In this document: in pieces, positions 12,001 to 18,000 of the stretch | How the letters are laid out: every line of letters begins with the position of its first letter | Position numbering within the stretch: position 1 is the stretch's first letter | Origin: Okamejei kenojei | Lineage: Eukaryota | Assembly (NCBI GenBank): GCA_035221665.1 | Contig: CM069154.1 | Location: 5,208,001-5,272,000 of the forward strand | Direction: 5' to 3' | DNA length: 64,000 nucleotides | Made by a program: the position numbers

Positions 12001-15000
12001 ATGATTAACGAGTTTACAGATTACACCAAAATTGTATCATTTTGGATAGTACGATAATCATAGACCACAGAGGGATGAGAAGCAACTGGTATGTTGGGCA
12101 GAGCAATGCCAGCAGGTATTGAACCGTGATAAGTGTGAAGTTATTTGTTTTTGGCATCAAATAAGGGTAGACATTCACAATGGTAGGGCCACTGGGTATA
12201 CTAAGGACAGAGGGACTTTAGTCAGGGCCAAGGAGTATTTATCAATGGACTGGAATGTGATCAGCCAGGCTTACTCGAAGTACTGGGACTGATTTTACCG
12301 ACAACAGGATACGTTCCCCCTCTACTCAAACTGTCACAACTGAGAAAGGTTGCAGATGGTCACAATCTGCACCCCCCCCCCTAAAGAGAACATTAAATGT
12401 TTAAAATGATGTTCTGTGCCACTTTAGTGATGTGTGGGAGATGCTGCAGTTGGGAGCGCTCTAGCTCTGTGTGGGGAGATTCTTGGTTCGAATCCCAATC
12501 CAGAGATTTGAGCAAGGATCCTTCCTAGGCCACCTTAGATGGACCAAGCCCCTTGATCTAGACATGAGGCTCGCCCATTGAGATGTCAGCGCAGCGGTAG
12601 AGTTGCTGCCTCACAGCGCAGGAGTCCTGGGTTCGATCCTGACTACCGGTGCTGTCAGAGCAGAGTTTGTACGTTATACCTGTGATCACAAGAGTTTACT
12701 CCGGATCCTCCAGTTTCCTCCCACATTCCAAAGACGTGCGGGTTTGTAATAAATTGTCCCTAGTGTGTAGAACAGAACTGGTGTATGGGGTGATCGCTGC
12801 TCAGAGCGGTCTCGTTGGGCCAAAGGGTCACGCTGTATCTTTAAACTGAGCTGAACTGAACTGAACTAATTTGTTCTCAGATGAGGCTGAGTTGGCTCTT
12901 TGAATTACTAACCTGTTTGGAAAAGTTGAAACGAGAGACTCAGTGGAACTTGCTGCCTCGGTGGTGATGATCATATCTGGGCGGCTTGTTTGAGTCCCTT
13001 GTGGAGATAAAGTGAATGATGTTTTTTAACATTAAATGTCTGAAAGCACGTTCTATGCCACTTTCGTGAGGTGTGGGAGATGCCTCGGTTGGGAGCGTTC
13101 TTGCTCTGTATGTGGAGATTCCTGGGTTCAAATCCCAATCCAGAGATTTGAGCAAAGATCCTTCTGAGGCCACCATAGATGGACCAAGCCTCTTGATCTA
13201 GACAGGAGGCTCGCCCATTAAGATGCCACCGGATGGTCGCAAGCATTCAGAGACTTTTTTCATGCCCTTCAGAGTCCCACAGGCTGTGTTATCTTCCTGC
13301 TGCTAGAGTTAGGCCCATGTCTTCTACGTTGGTGATGAACTTGGGAGCGGGAGGATCCATGGACTATTTTCATTACGCGGACTGAATTGGAAATAATGCA
13401 ATTTGGTTGGAGGTATCTACCTGAAACATTAATTCTCGTGCTCTCTCCACAGATGCTGCCCGGCCTGTTGAGTATCTCATCTTGTACAGTTTGTGTGGCT
13501 CAGTGTAAAGTCTATATCACTCATCTCATGAGGATTCTTAGTTCATAAGTTCATAAGTGATAGGGGCAGAATGAGGCCATTTGGCCCATTGAGTCTACAT
13601 CGCCATTCAATCATGGGTGATCTATCTCTCCCTCTCAACCCCATCCTCCTGCTTTCTCCCCATATCGCTTGACACCCGTACTAATGGAGAACCTGTCAAT
13701 CTCCACCTTAAAAATACCCAGTGACTTGGCCCTCATTGGAAACACGGTAAAAACTTTTCCCTGTAGGTCGGTACAGACGACAACAATAAACTGAGCTCAT
13801 GAATCACCAAAGTTTGTGAGACACAAGGAATTGCAGGTGCTGGAATCTTGAGCAAAACACAAAGTGCTGGAGTAACTCAGCAGGTCAGGCAGCATCTGTG
13901 GAAGGAATGAATAGACGATGTATTGGCTTGGGACCCTTCTTCAGATGTTGTGTGCGTGGTGGGTGTGACAGTGACGGGCAGGGGGAGAGGGTGAGGGGGC
14001 GGTTCCCACCCCCCCCGCCCCCCCTTCCCCAGTGAGGGGGAACCAGAGGTTCTGGTCCCGGAGAGATCATCTTTGGGGAAACGAGCCACCAGCAGCAGAA
14101 CCGCCGGTCCCCATTGATGACCACCCCCCCCCCCACCCCCACGGACCCCCGGGGATGTGGCACCGAGTCACCGTCAGGACCAAGGCCGGAATTCCCAGGC
14201 TGGAATTTTCACATCTGGGAGAGTGAGGAGAGATCGTCAACGTACCTTCAGAAACCTTCAATGAGATGGATGTCCTTTCATCGAAGTTCAATGGTATGTC
14301 TATCTCACACCAGTAGCGTCCTTCATCACTCTTCTCCAGGTTGTCGATGGTTACTGAAACTATCCGTTGTGTTTTGTTATCAGTCATCGATGTTCTCCCT
14401 CGTCGTGGGTCATCAGTATAAACCACGGTCTTAGATAACAGGTAATAATCACCTTTAAGCCATCGCTTCCTGTTGTCACTGTATTCCCGACCATACTGAC
14501 ATTCCAGAGTGACCGACTGCCCCAACTCTCCCCTCACCTCCTTGGGTCCAGTTATTCCCCTTGACCCTGTTGGCACATTAATGATGAAAGATCACTCACA
14601 CTGCAGCAACACAAGCTGAGTTTTAACAAAAAACATGTCATTTGTGCTGTCCAGACAGGTTCATGGTTTCGCATAGATCATGTGTAGCAAGGAACTGCAG
14701 GTGCTGGTTTACACCAAAGGAAGACACAAAGTGCTGGAGTAACTCAGCGGGACAGGCAGCATCTCTCGAGAAAAAAGATGGGTGTCCTTTTTGGGTCGGG
14801 ACCCTTCTTGATCTCCCGGTTGCCAACCCTGTCAACGTCCCTTCCCATTCCCACACTGACCTTTCTGTCCTGGGCCTCCTCCATTGCCATTAATGGAGAA
14901 CCAGTCAATCTCCACCTTAAAAATACCCAGTGACTTGGCCCTCATTGGAAACACGGTAAAAGCTTTTCCCTGTGCGTCGGTACAGACGACAACAATAAAC

Positions 15001-18000
15001 TGAGCTCATGAATCACCAAAGTTTGTGAGACACAAGGAATTGCAGGTGCTGGAATCTTGAGCAAAACACAAAGTGCTGGAGTAACTCAGCAGGTCAGGCA
15101 GCATCTGTGGAAGGAATGAATAGACGATGTATTGGCTTGGGACCCTTCTTCAGATGTTGTGTGAGTGGTGGGTGAGACGGTGACGAGCAGGAGGAGAGTG
15201 TGAGGGGGCGTTCTACCCCCCCGCCCCCCCTTCCCCAGTAGGGGGGCACCAGAGGCTCTGGTCCCGGAGAGATCATCTTTGGGGAAATGAACCACCAGCA
15301 GCAGAACCGCCGGTCCCCATTGATGACCACCCCCCAACAGACCCCCGGGGATGTGGCACCGAGTCACCGTCAGGACCGAGGCCAGGAATTCCCAGGCTGG
15401 AATTTTCACATCTGGGAGAGTGAGGAGAGATCGTCAACGTACCTTCTGATACCTTCAATGAGATGGATGTCCTTTCATCGGAGTTCAATGATATGTCTAT
15501 CTCACACCAGTAGCATCCTTCATCACTCTTCTCCAGGTTGTCGATACTGAAACTATCCGTTGTGTTTTGTTATCAGTCATCGATGTTCTCCCTCGTCGTG
15601 GGTCATCAGTATAAACCACTGTCTTAGATAACGGGTAATAATCACCTTTAAGCCATCGCTTCCTGTTGTCACTGTATTCCCGACCATACTGACATTCCAG
15701 AGTGACCGACTGCTCCAACTCTCCCCTCACCTCCTTGGGTCCAGTTATTCCCCTTGACCCTGTTGGCACATGAATGATGAAAGATCACTCACACTGCAGC
15801 AACACAAGCTGAGTTTTAACAAAAAACATGTCATTTGTGCTGTCCAGACAGGTTCATGGTTTCGCATAGATCATGTGTAGCAAGGAACTGCAGGTGCTGG
15901 TTTACACCAAAGGAAGACACAAAGTGCTGGAGTAACTCAGCGGGACAGGCAGCATCTCTCGAGAAAAAGGATGGGTGTCCTTTTTGGGTCGGGACCCTTC
16001 TTGATCTCCCAGTTGCCAACCCTGTCAACGTCCCTTCCCATTCCCACACTGACCTTTCTGTCCTGGGCCTCCTCCATTGCTAGAATAAGGCCACATGCAA
16101 ATTGGAGGAACCGCACCTCATATTACGCTTAAGTAGTTTACAACCCAACGGTTTGAACGTTGAATTCTCTAATTTTAAGTATCTTCTACTAACCTGCTCC
16201 CTCCCCTCCCCCCTTGACCCTTTTCTCCACCCTGGTGGGTGAGGGGCCGGTTTCCCCCCACCTGCCCCAGTGAGGGGGCGGCAGAGGTTCTGATCCCGGA
16301 GCGATCGTCTTTGGGGAAATGAGCCTCTGCAGCAGAACCGCCGGTAGCTGGGACCTCCCGTGGGGCTGGTGTCTGACAGTCCCCCCCCCCCTACCCCCAT
16401 ACTGCTCCTGGGACAGTGGGCTGTTGGTGTGTGGCCCCATAGGCGGGACCCCAGTAAATGAGGTATCCACCCCCCCCCCCTCACCCCGATCCCCGGGGAT
16501 GTGGCACCGAGTCACCGTCAGGACAGAGGCCGGAATTCCCAGGCTGGAATGTTCACATCAGGGAGAGTGAGGAGAGATCGTCAACGTACCTTCTGAAACC
16601 TTCAATGAGATGGAGGTCGATTCAATAGATGAGTCTCTTCCCGTTTCTATCTGACACCAGTAGCGTCCTTCATCACTCTTCTCCAGCTTCTCGATGGTTA
16701 CTGAAACTATCCGTTGTATTTTGTTATCAGTCATCGATGTTCTCCCTTGTTGTGGGTGATCAGTAGAAACCACGGTCTCTGGTGACCGGTTATCATAACC
16801 TTTAAGCCATCGCTTCCTGTTGTCACTGTATTCCTGACCATACTGACATTCCACAGTGACCGACTGCCCCAACTCTCCCCTCACCTCCTTGGGTTCAGTT
16901 TCTCCCCTTGACCCTGTTGGCACATGAATGATGAACGATCACTCACACTGCAGCAACACAAGCTGAGGTTTAACAATAAAAAACATGTCATTTGTGCTGG
17001 GTACACAAAAGGCTGGAGAAACTCAGCGGGTTCAGCAGCATCTAAGGAGCGAAGGAGATGGGCAACATTTCGGGCCGAAAGCCTGTGCTGTTCAGACAGG
17101 TTCATGGTTTCGCATAGATCATGTGTAGCAAGGAACTGCAGGTGCTGGTTTACACCAAAGATAGACACAAAGAGCTGGAGTAACTCAGCGGGACAGGCAG
17201 CATCTCTGGAGAAACTGACGGGTGATGTTCCCTCACCCATTCCTTCTCTCCAGAGATGCTGCCCGGCCCGCTGAATTACTCCAGCATTTTGTGTCTCTCT
17301 TCTTTTGCATAGATCCTGTTGCACTTTAATGCTTTTCCCACTGGTGTTAATTCCCATTTCACCGGGATTGTTCCCCAAGTTCCAGTGAAAGCAGAACTGC
17401 TCCTGAATCTACCTGGCGCCCAGATCCTCCTTCCCTGTGGGCGTGGCTTGACCCGAGTGGTAGTCATGTGACACGCCAACATGTCAAGCCAACGTGTCTC
17501 TCACTCTGACCCACCCTGTGTTCAATCTCACTACAACCCACTTCCCCATTGAACTAGTAGAAACAAGGAACTGCAGATGCTGGTTAATGCACAAGAGGAC
17601 ACAAAGTGCTGGAGTAACTCAACGGGTCAGGAACTATCTCTGGAGAAAGTGGAACTCTCTGGGTGAACAGGTTTTTCCTCATCTGAGTCCTAAATGGCCT
17701 ACCCCTTATTCAGGTCTCAACCCTAAACGTCACCTATCCATGTTCTCCAGAGATGCTGTCTGACCTGCTGATTTACTCCAGCACTTTGTGCTTTACTAAA
17801 GCTGATTAGCCAGCTGCCTGTGATGGCTCAGCGGGTCAGGCAACATCGCTGGAGAACATGTTACGGGAGAGACATGGTGGCACAGGGGTAGAGTTGCTGC
17901 CTTACAGCGCCAGAGACCCATGTTTGATCCTGACCTCGGGTGCTGTCTGTACGGAGTTTGTACGTTCTCCCTATGACAGCGTGGGCTTTCTCCGGGTGCT

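What the first reader, a model, noticed from the sequence alone, without database searches (positions are those of the whole stretch)
14246..16913. Divergence between V copies is concentrated in two loops
Copies 1 and 3 have nearly identical framework strands and adjacent intron but differ sharply at C-C' (DYYLLSKT versus YDNRSPET) and F-G (EIDIPLNFDERT versus QIETGRDSSIEST, with a codon indel). This CDR-like pattern suggests diversifying selection or patchy gene conversion on a ligand-binding face.
Basis: partly seen in the sequence, partly recalled or inferred. Interest (0 to 1): 0.65.

Follow-up and report, generated by a model that had tools for sequence, protein, structure and literature searches.

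The report
Loop-variable V exons, skate receptor pseudogene
Three tandem copies of an immunoglobulin V-type exon in a skate CD300/pIgR-like immune receptor gene (now a pseudogene) differ almost only in the two loops that form the ligand pocket in related receptors, which is the usual pattern for such gene families.

Summary
Three phase-1/phase-1 V-set exons lie on the minus strand: c3 16590-16913, c2 15443-15759 and c1 14246-14566. c2 carries a 4-nt deletion that shifts the frame. Copies 1 and 3 differ at 38 of 321 exon positions. Of these, 24 fall in 54 nt encoding the C-C' and F-G loops; the rest of the exon (14/264) is as diverged as the flanking introns (22/329). A confident model of c3 places both patches on those loops, and its best structural match is mouse CD300lf, whose ligand cleft lies between the CC' and CDR3 (FG) loops. 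The same two loops are the variable spots in 21 skate domains and in 40 domains from other rays and sharks. dN/dS above 1 in the loops is not significant, and synonymous divergence is raised there too. The framework tree groups the window's copies together, while c3's FG loop resembles the first-domain type of other genera. This favours unit homogenisation that spared the loops over purely recent positive selection. The gene itself is dead: a LINE splits the leader exon, c2 is frameshifted, and a tail exon holds a stop. It is an ordinary new member of a known receptor family.

The parts
16590..16913 (-). V-set exon copy 3 (first V exon of the gene), 324 nt, phase 1/1, open frame
   Evidence: Splice motifs and translation. 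Pfam V-set E=1.5e-15. AlphaFold model mean pLDDT 89.1.
15443..15759 (-). V-set exon copy 2, 317 nt. A 4-nt deletion shifts the frame, and there is an R-to-C change in the GRYWC motif. Near-duplicate of copy 1.
   Evidence: It differs from c1 at 8 of 317 positions.
14246..14566 (-). V-set exon copy 1 (last V exon), 321 nt, phase 1/1, open frame
   Evidence: Pfam V-set E=1.5e-14. Best sequence hits in the PDB are pIgR and CD300/CMRF35 chains.
16777..16797 (-). C-C' loop codons of copy 3 (YDNRSPE)
   Evidence: Coordinates. Loop assignment from the model: strand C 33-37, strand C' 45-49.
14430..14450 (-). C-C' loop codons of copy 1 (DYYLLSK)
   Evidence: 13 of 21 nt are identical to copy 3; 7 nonsynonymous and 1 synonymous change.
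16615..16653 (-). End of strand F, F-G loop and start of strand G in copy 3 (QIETGRDSSIEST)
   Evidence: Model strands F 82-89 and G 96-106.
14271..14306 (-). End of strand F, F-G loop and start of strand G in copy 1 (EIDIPLNFDERT), one codon shorter
14567..14790 (-). Upstream intron of copy 1 that aligns with that of copy 3 (4/85 and 11/138 differences). Copy 3 has an extra insert of about 90 nt there.
14140..14245 (-). Downstream intron of copy 1 that aligns with that of copy 3 (7/106 differences)
25542..25614 (-). 5' half of the leader exon: ATG, then one extra G after codon 3, then cut off by the LINE insertion
   Evidence: One search compared with the intact leader. tblastn hits 71-81% identical.
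19173..25540 (+). LINE retrotransposon of about 6.4 kb inserted in the leader exon, with a poly-A end and a 14-nt target-site duplication (limits approximate)
   Evidence: ORFs. Pfam Exo_endo_phos E=3.4e-16 and RVT_1 E=7.5e-28. Junctions.
19136..19172 (-). 3' half of the leader exon; one G of the exon-end/donor junction (CAG|GTAAAT) is missing
   Evidence: compared.
12913..12997 (-). Ser/Thr-rich stalk exon with AG and GT splice sites, shorter than in relatives
9546..9695 (-). Transmembrane exon of the Arg-bearing type (VLNVRRVW..LRWVLF), with one more Arg than relatives
7413..7499 (-). Short cytoplasmic exon with an in-frame stop

Best explanation
The region holds three tandem duplicates of a unit of about 1.2 kb (intron, V exon, intron). 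They sit inside one gene of the skate receptor family annotated as 'pIgR-like' or 'CMRF35-like', probably the family published as MDIR. Members carry one to four such CD300-type V domains, a mucin-like stalk, and either an ITIM tail or an Arg-bearing transmembrane segment.

Copy 2 is a young duplicate of copy 1. Copies 1 and 3 are about 5-7% apart everywhere, introns included, except in two short patches that encode the C-C' loop and the F-G hairpin. By homology with CD300lf these two loops wall the ligand cleft.

Most likely history (inferred): first-domain and later-domain types with different clefts are old. Gene conversion or unequal crossing-over between the tandem units then homogenised framework and introns. 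The cleft patches stayed apart, either because selection kept different specificities or because their mismatches stopped conversion tracts. Rapid, mostly amino-acid-changing substitution added to the difference in the C-C' loop of copy 3.

The gene was later inactivated by a LINE in the leader exon, a frameshift in copy 2 and a stop in the tail exon.
For: Shown:
- Family and fold: Pfam V-set; sequence hits to pIgR and CD300 chains; model pLDDT 89.1 with best structural match CD300lf at TM 0.84.
- Skate homologues P0001-P0007 with 1-4 domains.
- Gene parts in the window.
- Differences cluster in the loops.
- The framework evolves at the intron rate: nonsynonymous 12/204 against introns 22/329, p=0.86. 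Loop divergence is therefore 6-8 times the neutral level: Poisson P of 1e-4 to 4e-4 for C-C' and below 3e-8 for F-G at rates of 0.067-0.08.
- Synonymous divergence is also raised in the loops (3/11 against 2/60, p=0.024).
- In the framework-only tree, c1, c2 and c3 group together (support 84/81), and the 8 Rhinoraja domains group together (99/98).
- c3's F-G loop matches the first-domain type of Leucoraja and Amblyraja at 5-7 of 12 positions, against 2 of 13 with c1. c3 also shares their TEP motif.
- The same loops are the hot spots in all 210 of 210 domain pairs, in each of the four species sets, and in 40 further domains.
Against: - No DNA of paralogues or orthologues from other skates could be fetched, so the age of the c1/c3 split relative to the genus splits is unknown. 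Conversion was not tested formally.
- Support for the window clade is only moderate (84/81).
- c3's framework identity to c1 (78/89) barely exceeds that to an Amblyraja second domain (77/89).
- c3's F-G loop also matches the long later-domain type at 5 of 12 positions, so the type assignment rests on about three residues plus TEP.
- The synonymous counts rest on about 11 sites and on path-averaged multi-hit codons.
- The C-C' loop of c3 resembles no other family member. It differs from c1 by single changes in each of 7 codons (7 nonsynonymous, 1 synonymous), which fits positive selection better than old ancestry.
- Spatial closeness of the two patches was not measured in the model, because no coordinates were returned.
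Confidence: 0.55

Rival explanations
1. Recent exon duplication followed by positive (diversifying) selection on the cleft loops, with no gene conversion. The whole unit is as young as its introns suggest, and the loops changed fast because new ligand specificities were favoured.
For: - Loop divergence far exceeds the intron rate.
- The C-C' loop shows 7 nonsynonymous and 1 synonymous change, with third codon positions mostly kept and 13 of 21 nt identical.
- Both loops are still detectably homologous at DNA level.
- The framework tree groups the window's copies.
- Even the near-identical Rhinoraja domains differ mostly at a few loop positions.
Against: - dN/dS above 1 in the loops is not significant (p=0.17).
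- Synonymous divergence is also raised about eightfold (p=0.024).
- The F-G patch has 5 codons with 2-3 changes each.
- c3's F-G loop carries the G.DS.IEST-like first-domain motif seen in other genera, which would then have to be convergent.
Confidence: 0.3
2. Neutral decay only. The loops are structurally unconstrained, the gene is a pseudogene, and the loops simply drifted faster.
For: The gene is broken in several places. Framework nonsynonymous change already runs at the intron rate.
Against: Neutral change cannot exceed the neutral rate. The loops show 38-47% differences against 5-8% in introns of the same unit. The same loops are the hot spots in intact genes of other species.
Confidence: 0.04
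3. Artefact of alignment or assembly, such as collapsed or chimeric copies in a repeat-rich region.
For: The region is repetitive, with SINE-like motifs and tandem units. The copy 2 frameshift could be a sequencing error.
Against: The exon alignment is unambiguous outside a one-codon indel, and both indel placements give the same picture. Both loop variants fit loop types seen in independent species.
Confidence: 0.03

Closest known systems
CD300 / CMRF35-like molecules (for example mouse CD300lf, PDB 5ffl, 1zox, 6h6l)
   Same: - Single V-set fold. Best structural match has TM 0.84 and 35% identity.
- Paired activating and inhibitory forms occur in the skate homologues.
- The variable patches coincide with the CC' and CDR3 loops that form the CD300lf ligand cleft.
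- Gene conversion and pseudogenes are known in the family.
   Different: - The second disulfide of CD300lf (Cys36-Cys44, at the floor of the cleft) is absent: c1 and c3 have no Cys there.
- Skate genes carry up to four tandem V domains, whereas the four CD300 chains matched in the structure search are single domains of about 110 residues.
- The ligand is unknown.
Polymeric immunoglobulin receptor (pIgR)
   Same: Best sequence hit in the PDB (E=1.4e-27, strongest to domain 5). It has tandem V-type domains. NCBI names the skate homologues 'pIgR-like'.
   Different: The skate proteins have a mucin-like stalk and ITIM or charged-transmembrane tails, not the pIgR layout. The high score is summed over repeated domains. 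There is no evidence of Ig binding.
MDIR, modular domain immune-type receptors of the clearnose skate (Cannon et al. 2006, Immunogenetics 58:362)
   Same: Described as a multigene family of activating and inhibitory receptors in skate, with V domains like those of CD300, TREM and pIgR (PMC3031540 passages).
   Different: Not compared directly. The original paper is not held, and no MDIR sequences were at hand.

Membership tests
Immunoglobulin V-set domain (PF07686) | Profile match above the curated cut-off | tested here: met
   54.6 and 57.7 bits against a cut-off of 26.
Immunoglobulin V-set domain (PF07686) | Intradomain Cys pair, core Trp and the D.G.Y.C motif (feature list recalled) | tested here: met
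   C22, W35, DEGRYWC and C86 are present in c1 and c3. The nine-strand sandwich was modelled with pLDDT 89.1.
CD300/CMRF35-type V domain | Closest fold among solved structures | tested here: met
   CD300lf TM 0.84 and human CD300f (2nms) TM 0.87, ahead of NKp44, pIgR D1 and TREM.
CD300/CMRF35-type V domain | Second disulfide tying the C strand to the CC' loop (Cys36-Cys44 in CD300lf, PMC6166816) | tested here: not met
   c1 and c3 read RWLKG... with no Cys. Some relatives keep one Cys (LWCKG) but not its partner.
CD300/CMRF35-type V domain | Lipid or other ligand bound in a cleft between the CC' and FG loops | not testable with these tools
   Only the homology argument is available. No coordinates or binding data.
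MDIR (skate) | Skate multigene family with CD300/pIgR-like V domains and both inhibitory and activating tails | tested here: met
   P0001 and P0004 have tails with VIYTTV and VVY(S/A)TI (ITIM consensus recalled). P0003, P0006 and P0007 have the Arg-bearing transmembrane segment. Both tail types have exons in the window.
MDIR (skate) | Sequence identity with published MDIR1-5 | not tested
Sites under diversifying selection | dN/dS significantly above 1 at the loop codons | tested here: inconclusive
   Loops have pN 0.48-0.50 against pS 0.25-0.30. Nonsynonymous 21/43 against synonymous 3/11 gives p=0.17. No codeml run was possible without paralogue DNA.
Gene-conversion mosaic | Breakpoints or discordant trees between segments | tested here: inconclusive
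   The framework tree groups c3 with c1 and c2 (84/81), while the F-G loop and TEP motif match the first-domain type of other genera. This is protein-level evidence only. GENECONV has no power with three sequences.
Functional gene | Intact exons and reading frame | tested here: not met
   A LINE in the leader exon, a +1 G and a missing G at the leader's exon-end/donor junction; a 4-nt deletion in c2; a stop in the tail exon.

The most novel reading that the evidence does not exclude
Skate MDIR/CD300-like genes may build multi-domain receptors by duplicating whole intron-exon-intron units and keeping them homogenised, while the CC'/FG cleft of each domain is held apart or driven apart. That would give one receptor several different ligand clefts in tandem: a germline, exon-level way of diversifying recognition. 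Copy 3's C-C' loop, with 7 amino-acid changes in 7 consecutive codons and a new N-R-S sequon, would be a recent adaptive step.
Probability: 0.2. Interest if true: 0.5.

Novelty: new member of a known kind. Interest (0 to 1): 0.3.

Why it matters
The finding shows that the CC'/FG cleft, known as the ligand site of mammalian CD300 receptors, is also the evolutionarily variable site of a related receptor family in cartilaginous fish. It also shows that tandem V exons there evolve as mosaics. This is a useful pointer for anyone studying innate immune receptor evolution in skates, but the pattern is the expected one for such families, and this particular gene is a pseudogene.

Tried and rejected
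- The AlphaFold model of copy 1 from a 7-row alignment was poor: mean pLDDT 66.9, with residues 27-46 below 50. It was not used. Copy 3 with 30 rows gave a good model.
- The idea that the F-G loops differ by small compensating indels was not settled. A gapped DNA alignment beats shuffles (37-109 of 5000 reach it), but the tested stretch includes conserved strand-F bases.
- A search for a donor of copy 3's loop DNA elsewhere in the window found only chance 7-10-mers.
- For c1 against c2, 3 of 8 differences lie in the loops, which is not significant (p=0.14).
- The MDIR source papers PMC3701310 and PMC2823954 are not held.
Each exon was searched on its own.
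Full report
**What is there**

The window is vertebrate DNA that I take for a skate, not human. Its exons match proteins of Amblyraja radiata, Leucoraja erinacea and Rhinoraja longicauda at 72-97% identity. The N run at 60380-60879 was left alone.

Three tandem copies of a unit of about 1.2 kb lie on the minus strand. Each holds an exon bounded by ..CCAACAG| and |GTACGT, in phase 1 at both ends:
- c3: 16913..16590, 324 nt
- c2: 15759..15443, 317 nt
- c1: 14566..14246, 321 nt

c1 and c3 are open. c2 lacks 4 nt and shifts frame.

**Check of the observation**

The quoted loop peptides are present.

| Comparison c1 vs c3 | Differences | Source |
|---|---|---|
| Whole exon | 38/321 | |
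| Two loop patches | 24/54 | |
| Rest of exon | 14/264 | |
| Near upstream intron | 4/85 | |
| Far upstream intron | 11/138 | |
| Downstream intron | 7/106 | |

- Sixteen differences fall within 30 nt at F-G; 0 of 20000 permutations reach that.
- Eight of the other 21 fall within 20 nt at C-C'; 42 of 20000 permutations reach that.
- Loops against the rest of the exon give Fisher p=4e-12.
- The framework is therefore not conserved beyond neutrality; it is simply as young as the introns. Framework nonsynonymous change (12/204) against introns (22/329) gives p=0.86.
- 'Nearly identical' overstates it: 11 of 89 framework residues differ.

**What it is**

- Both exons are V-set domains (Pfam 54.6 and 57.7 bits, cut-off 26).
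- By sequence, the nearest solved chains are pIgR (E=1.4e-27, summed over its five domains) and CD300/CMRF35 molecules.
- A model of c3 from a 30-row alignment is confident (pLDDT 89.1, pTM 0.81). Its strands are C 33-37, C' 45-49, F 82-89 and G 96-106.
- Variable patch 1 (residues 39-45) is therefore the C-C' loop.
- Foldseek puts mouse CD300lf first (TM 0.84, 35% identity). Next come CD300a, NKp44, pIgR D1, CD300c and TREM2; human CD300f has TM 0.87.

Exon-by-exon searches found seven skate proteins named 'polymeric immunoglobulin receptor-like' or 'CMRF35-like molecule 3'. These proteins have:
- one to four tandem V domains of this type
- a Ser/Thr-rich stalk
- either a tail with VIYTTV and VVY(S/A)TI motifs (ITIM consensus recalled) or an Arg-bearing transmembrane segment with a short tail

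A family of this description in the clearnose skate is published as MDIR (PMC3031540, passages seen). The original paper is not held, so membership was not tested by sequence.

**The gene is broken**

tblastn with the seven proteins places these other exons on the same strand:
- leader at 25604-25542
- stalk at 12997-12913
- transmembrane exon at 9695-9546
- tail exon at 7499-7413

The defects are:
- The leader has an extra G after codon 3. It is cut after ..GTTGGCTCTT by about 6.4 kb of AT-rich DNA.
- That insert encodes an endonuclease and a reverse transcriptase on the plus strand (Pfam E=3.4e-16 and 7.5e-28). It ends in poly-A and is flanked by a 14-nt duplication. It is a LINE insertion.
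- The rest of the leader resumes at 19172-19136 with one G missing at the exon-end/donor junction (CAG|GTAAAT) (against the intact leader of the next gene).
- Copy 2 is frameshifted, and the tail exon has an in-frame stop.

This is a pseudogene, unless several of these defects are assembly errors.

**Why the two loops**

[quoted passage not shown] SI Fig. S1, which holds the loop definitions, could not be seen because supplements are closed. The window's variable patches are these same two loops.

One defining detail differs. The Cys36-Cys44 disulfide at the floor of that cleft has no counterpart in c1 or c3. Residue-by-residue equivalence and the distance between the two patches in the model were not computed, because no coordinates were returned.

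**Larger alignments**

- In 21 skate domains (18 from the seven proteins plus 3 from the window), mean column entropy is 1.64 (C-C'), 1.40 (F-G) and 0.46 (rest). The loops hold 43% of the entropy in 19% of the columns.
- Loop identity is below framework identity in 210 of 210 pairs, with means 0.42 and 0.81.
- Variable columns are enriched in the loops within each species set: p=0.0053 (Rhinoraja, 8 domains), 0.0017 (Leucoraja, 6), 1e-4 (Amblyraja, 4) and 9e-10 (window, 3).
- In 15 named proteins of other rays and sharks, 43 domains were found. Forty near-full-length ones were kept and 3 dropped. Their entropy is 2.23 (C-C'), 1.76 (F-G), 1.09 (B-C) and 1.04 (other), Mann-Whitney p=5e-6.

**Selection or conversion?**

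Nei-Gojobori counts for c1 against c3:

| Region | pN | pS | Basis |
|---|---|---|---|
| Loops | 0.48-0.50 | 0.25-0.30 | about 21 nonsynonymous changes on 43 sites, about 3 synonymous on 11 |
| Rest of exon | 0.059 | 0.033 | 12 nonsynonymous on 204 sites, 2 synonymous on 60 |

- dN above dS in the loops is not significant (p=0.17). Synonymous divergence in the loops is raised about eightfold (p=0.024). The counts are small, and multi-hit codons make them rough.
- Against the intron rate, the loops are far too diverged. P(at least 8 changes in 21 nt) is 1e-4 to 4e-4 at rates of 0.067-0.08. For F-G the probability is below 3e-8. Relaxed constraint alone cannot explain this.
- The framework-only tree groups c1, c2 and c3 (support 84/81) and the eight Rhinoraja domains (99/98). 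Frameworks therefore follow species.
- c3 nevertheless carries the TEP motif and a G.DS.IEST-like F-G loop of the first domains of Leucoraja and Amblyraja genes: 5-7 of 12 positions match, against 2 of 13 with c1.
- That discordance, together with the raised synonymous divergence, favours homogenisation of the units with the loops left out.
- The evidence is moderate. c3's framework is as close to an Amblyraja second domain (77/89) as to c1 (78/89). Its F-G loop also matches a later-domain type at 5 of 12 positions.
- The C-C' loop of c3 tells a different story. It resembles no other family member, keeps 13 of 21 nt of c1 (2 of 20000 shuffles reach that), and changes one base in each of 7 consecutive codons (7 nonsynonymous, 1 synonymous). 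This looks like fast adaptive change.
- Gene conversion between CD300 V domains, and birth-and-death with pseudogenes, are described for primates (PMC12447643, passages seen).

**Verdict**

The 'ligand-binding face' reading is supported by homology. Which process made the pattern is only partly resolved: I put conversion with loops spared at 0.55 and recent selection alone at 0.30. The object is a pseudogenised new member of a known kind of receptor family and shows that family's expected pattern.

**What stayed unchecked**

- Orthologous and paralogous DNA from other skates.
- Published MDIR sequences.
- Any literature not in the held library. Searches: the MDIR phrase, skate; MDIR, Raja eglanteria, immune-type receptor, CD300; CD300, cartilaginous fish, multigene family, positive selection. 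None listed a paper on loop variation in these skate genes.

Noticed in passing
window 19173-25540 (+): A near full-length LINE: endonuclease and reverse-transcriptase ORFs at 21070-24614, a 114-nt tandem repeat at 25107-25462, and a poly-A end. It is inserted in the leader exon with a 14-nt target-site duplication.
   Followed up: yes
window 1083-1181 (-): An intact leader exon (MAVGQGEFTHQKRPRSRGTVALLVLVAVGLTSG, with a GTAAAT donor), 97% identical to Amblyraja radiata family members. It starts the next gene, whose V exons lie beyond the window start.
   Followed up: partly
window 51132-51389 (-) and 49421-49812 (-): Two more V-type exons, only about 33% identical to c1. The first is V-set (E=2.2e-9) and keeps a WCK...C pair, as in CD300. 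The second is spread over two reading frames, and its 5' part alone has no Pfam match.
   Followed up: partly
window 35850-35977 (-) and 27364-27450 (-): A second copy of the Arg-bearing transmembrane exon, with a frame change and a stop, plus an open copy of the short tail exon. Together these form a further, probably defective, family member upstream.
   Followed up: no
window 63591-63705 (+) and 59261-59419 (-): ITIM-type tail exons. The plus-strand one is 82-90% identical to the C-terminus of P0004, but the match changes frame. The minus-strand one is riddled with stops.
   Followed up: no
window 1369-1527 (-) and 25799-25912 (-): The odd C-terminal 38-53 residues of the Rhinoraja protein P0002 match just upstream of each leader exon (72-76% identity). 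This suggests that the annotation reads through into the next gene's 5' region, or that there is an unrecognised exon.
   Followed up: no
window 13848-18302: Eight copies of a 64-nt SINE-like motif (..CACAAAGTGCTGGAGTAACTCAGCGGG.CAGGCAGCATCT..) on both sides of the V exons. Copy 3's upstream intron has an extra insert of about 90 nt of the same kind.
   Followed up: no
window 16590-16913 (-), copy 3: Copy 3 has lost the N-K-T sequon present in 16 of the other 20 skate domains of the 21-domain alignment (it reads NKI). It has gained N-R-S inside the C-C' loop. Copy 2 has an unpaired Cys (GCYWC).
   Followed up: no
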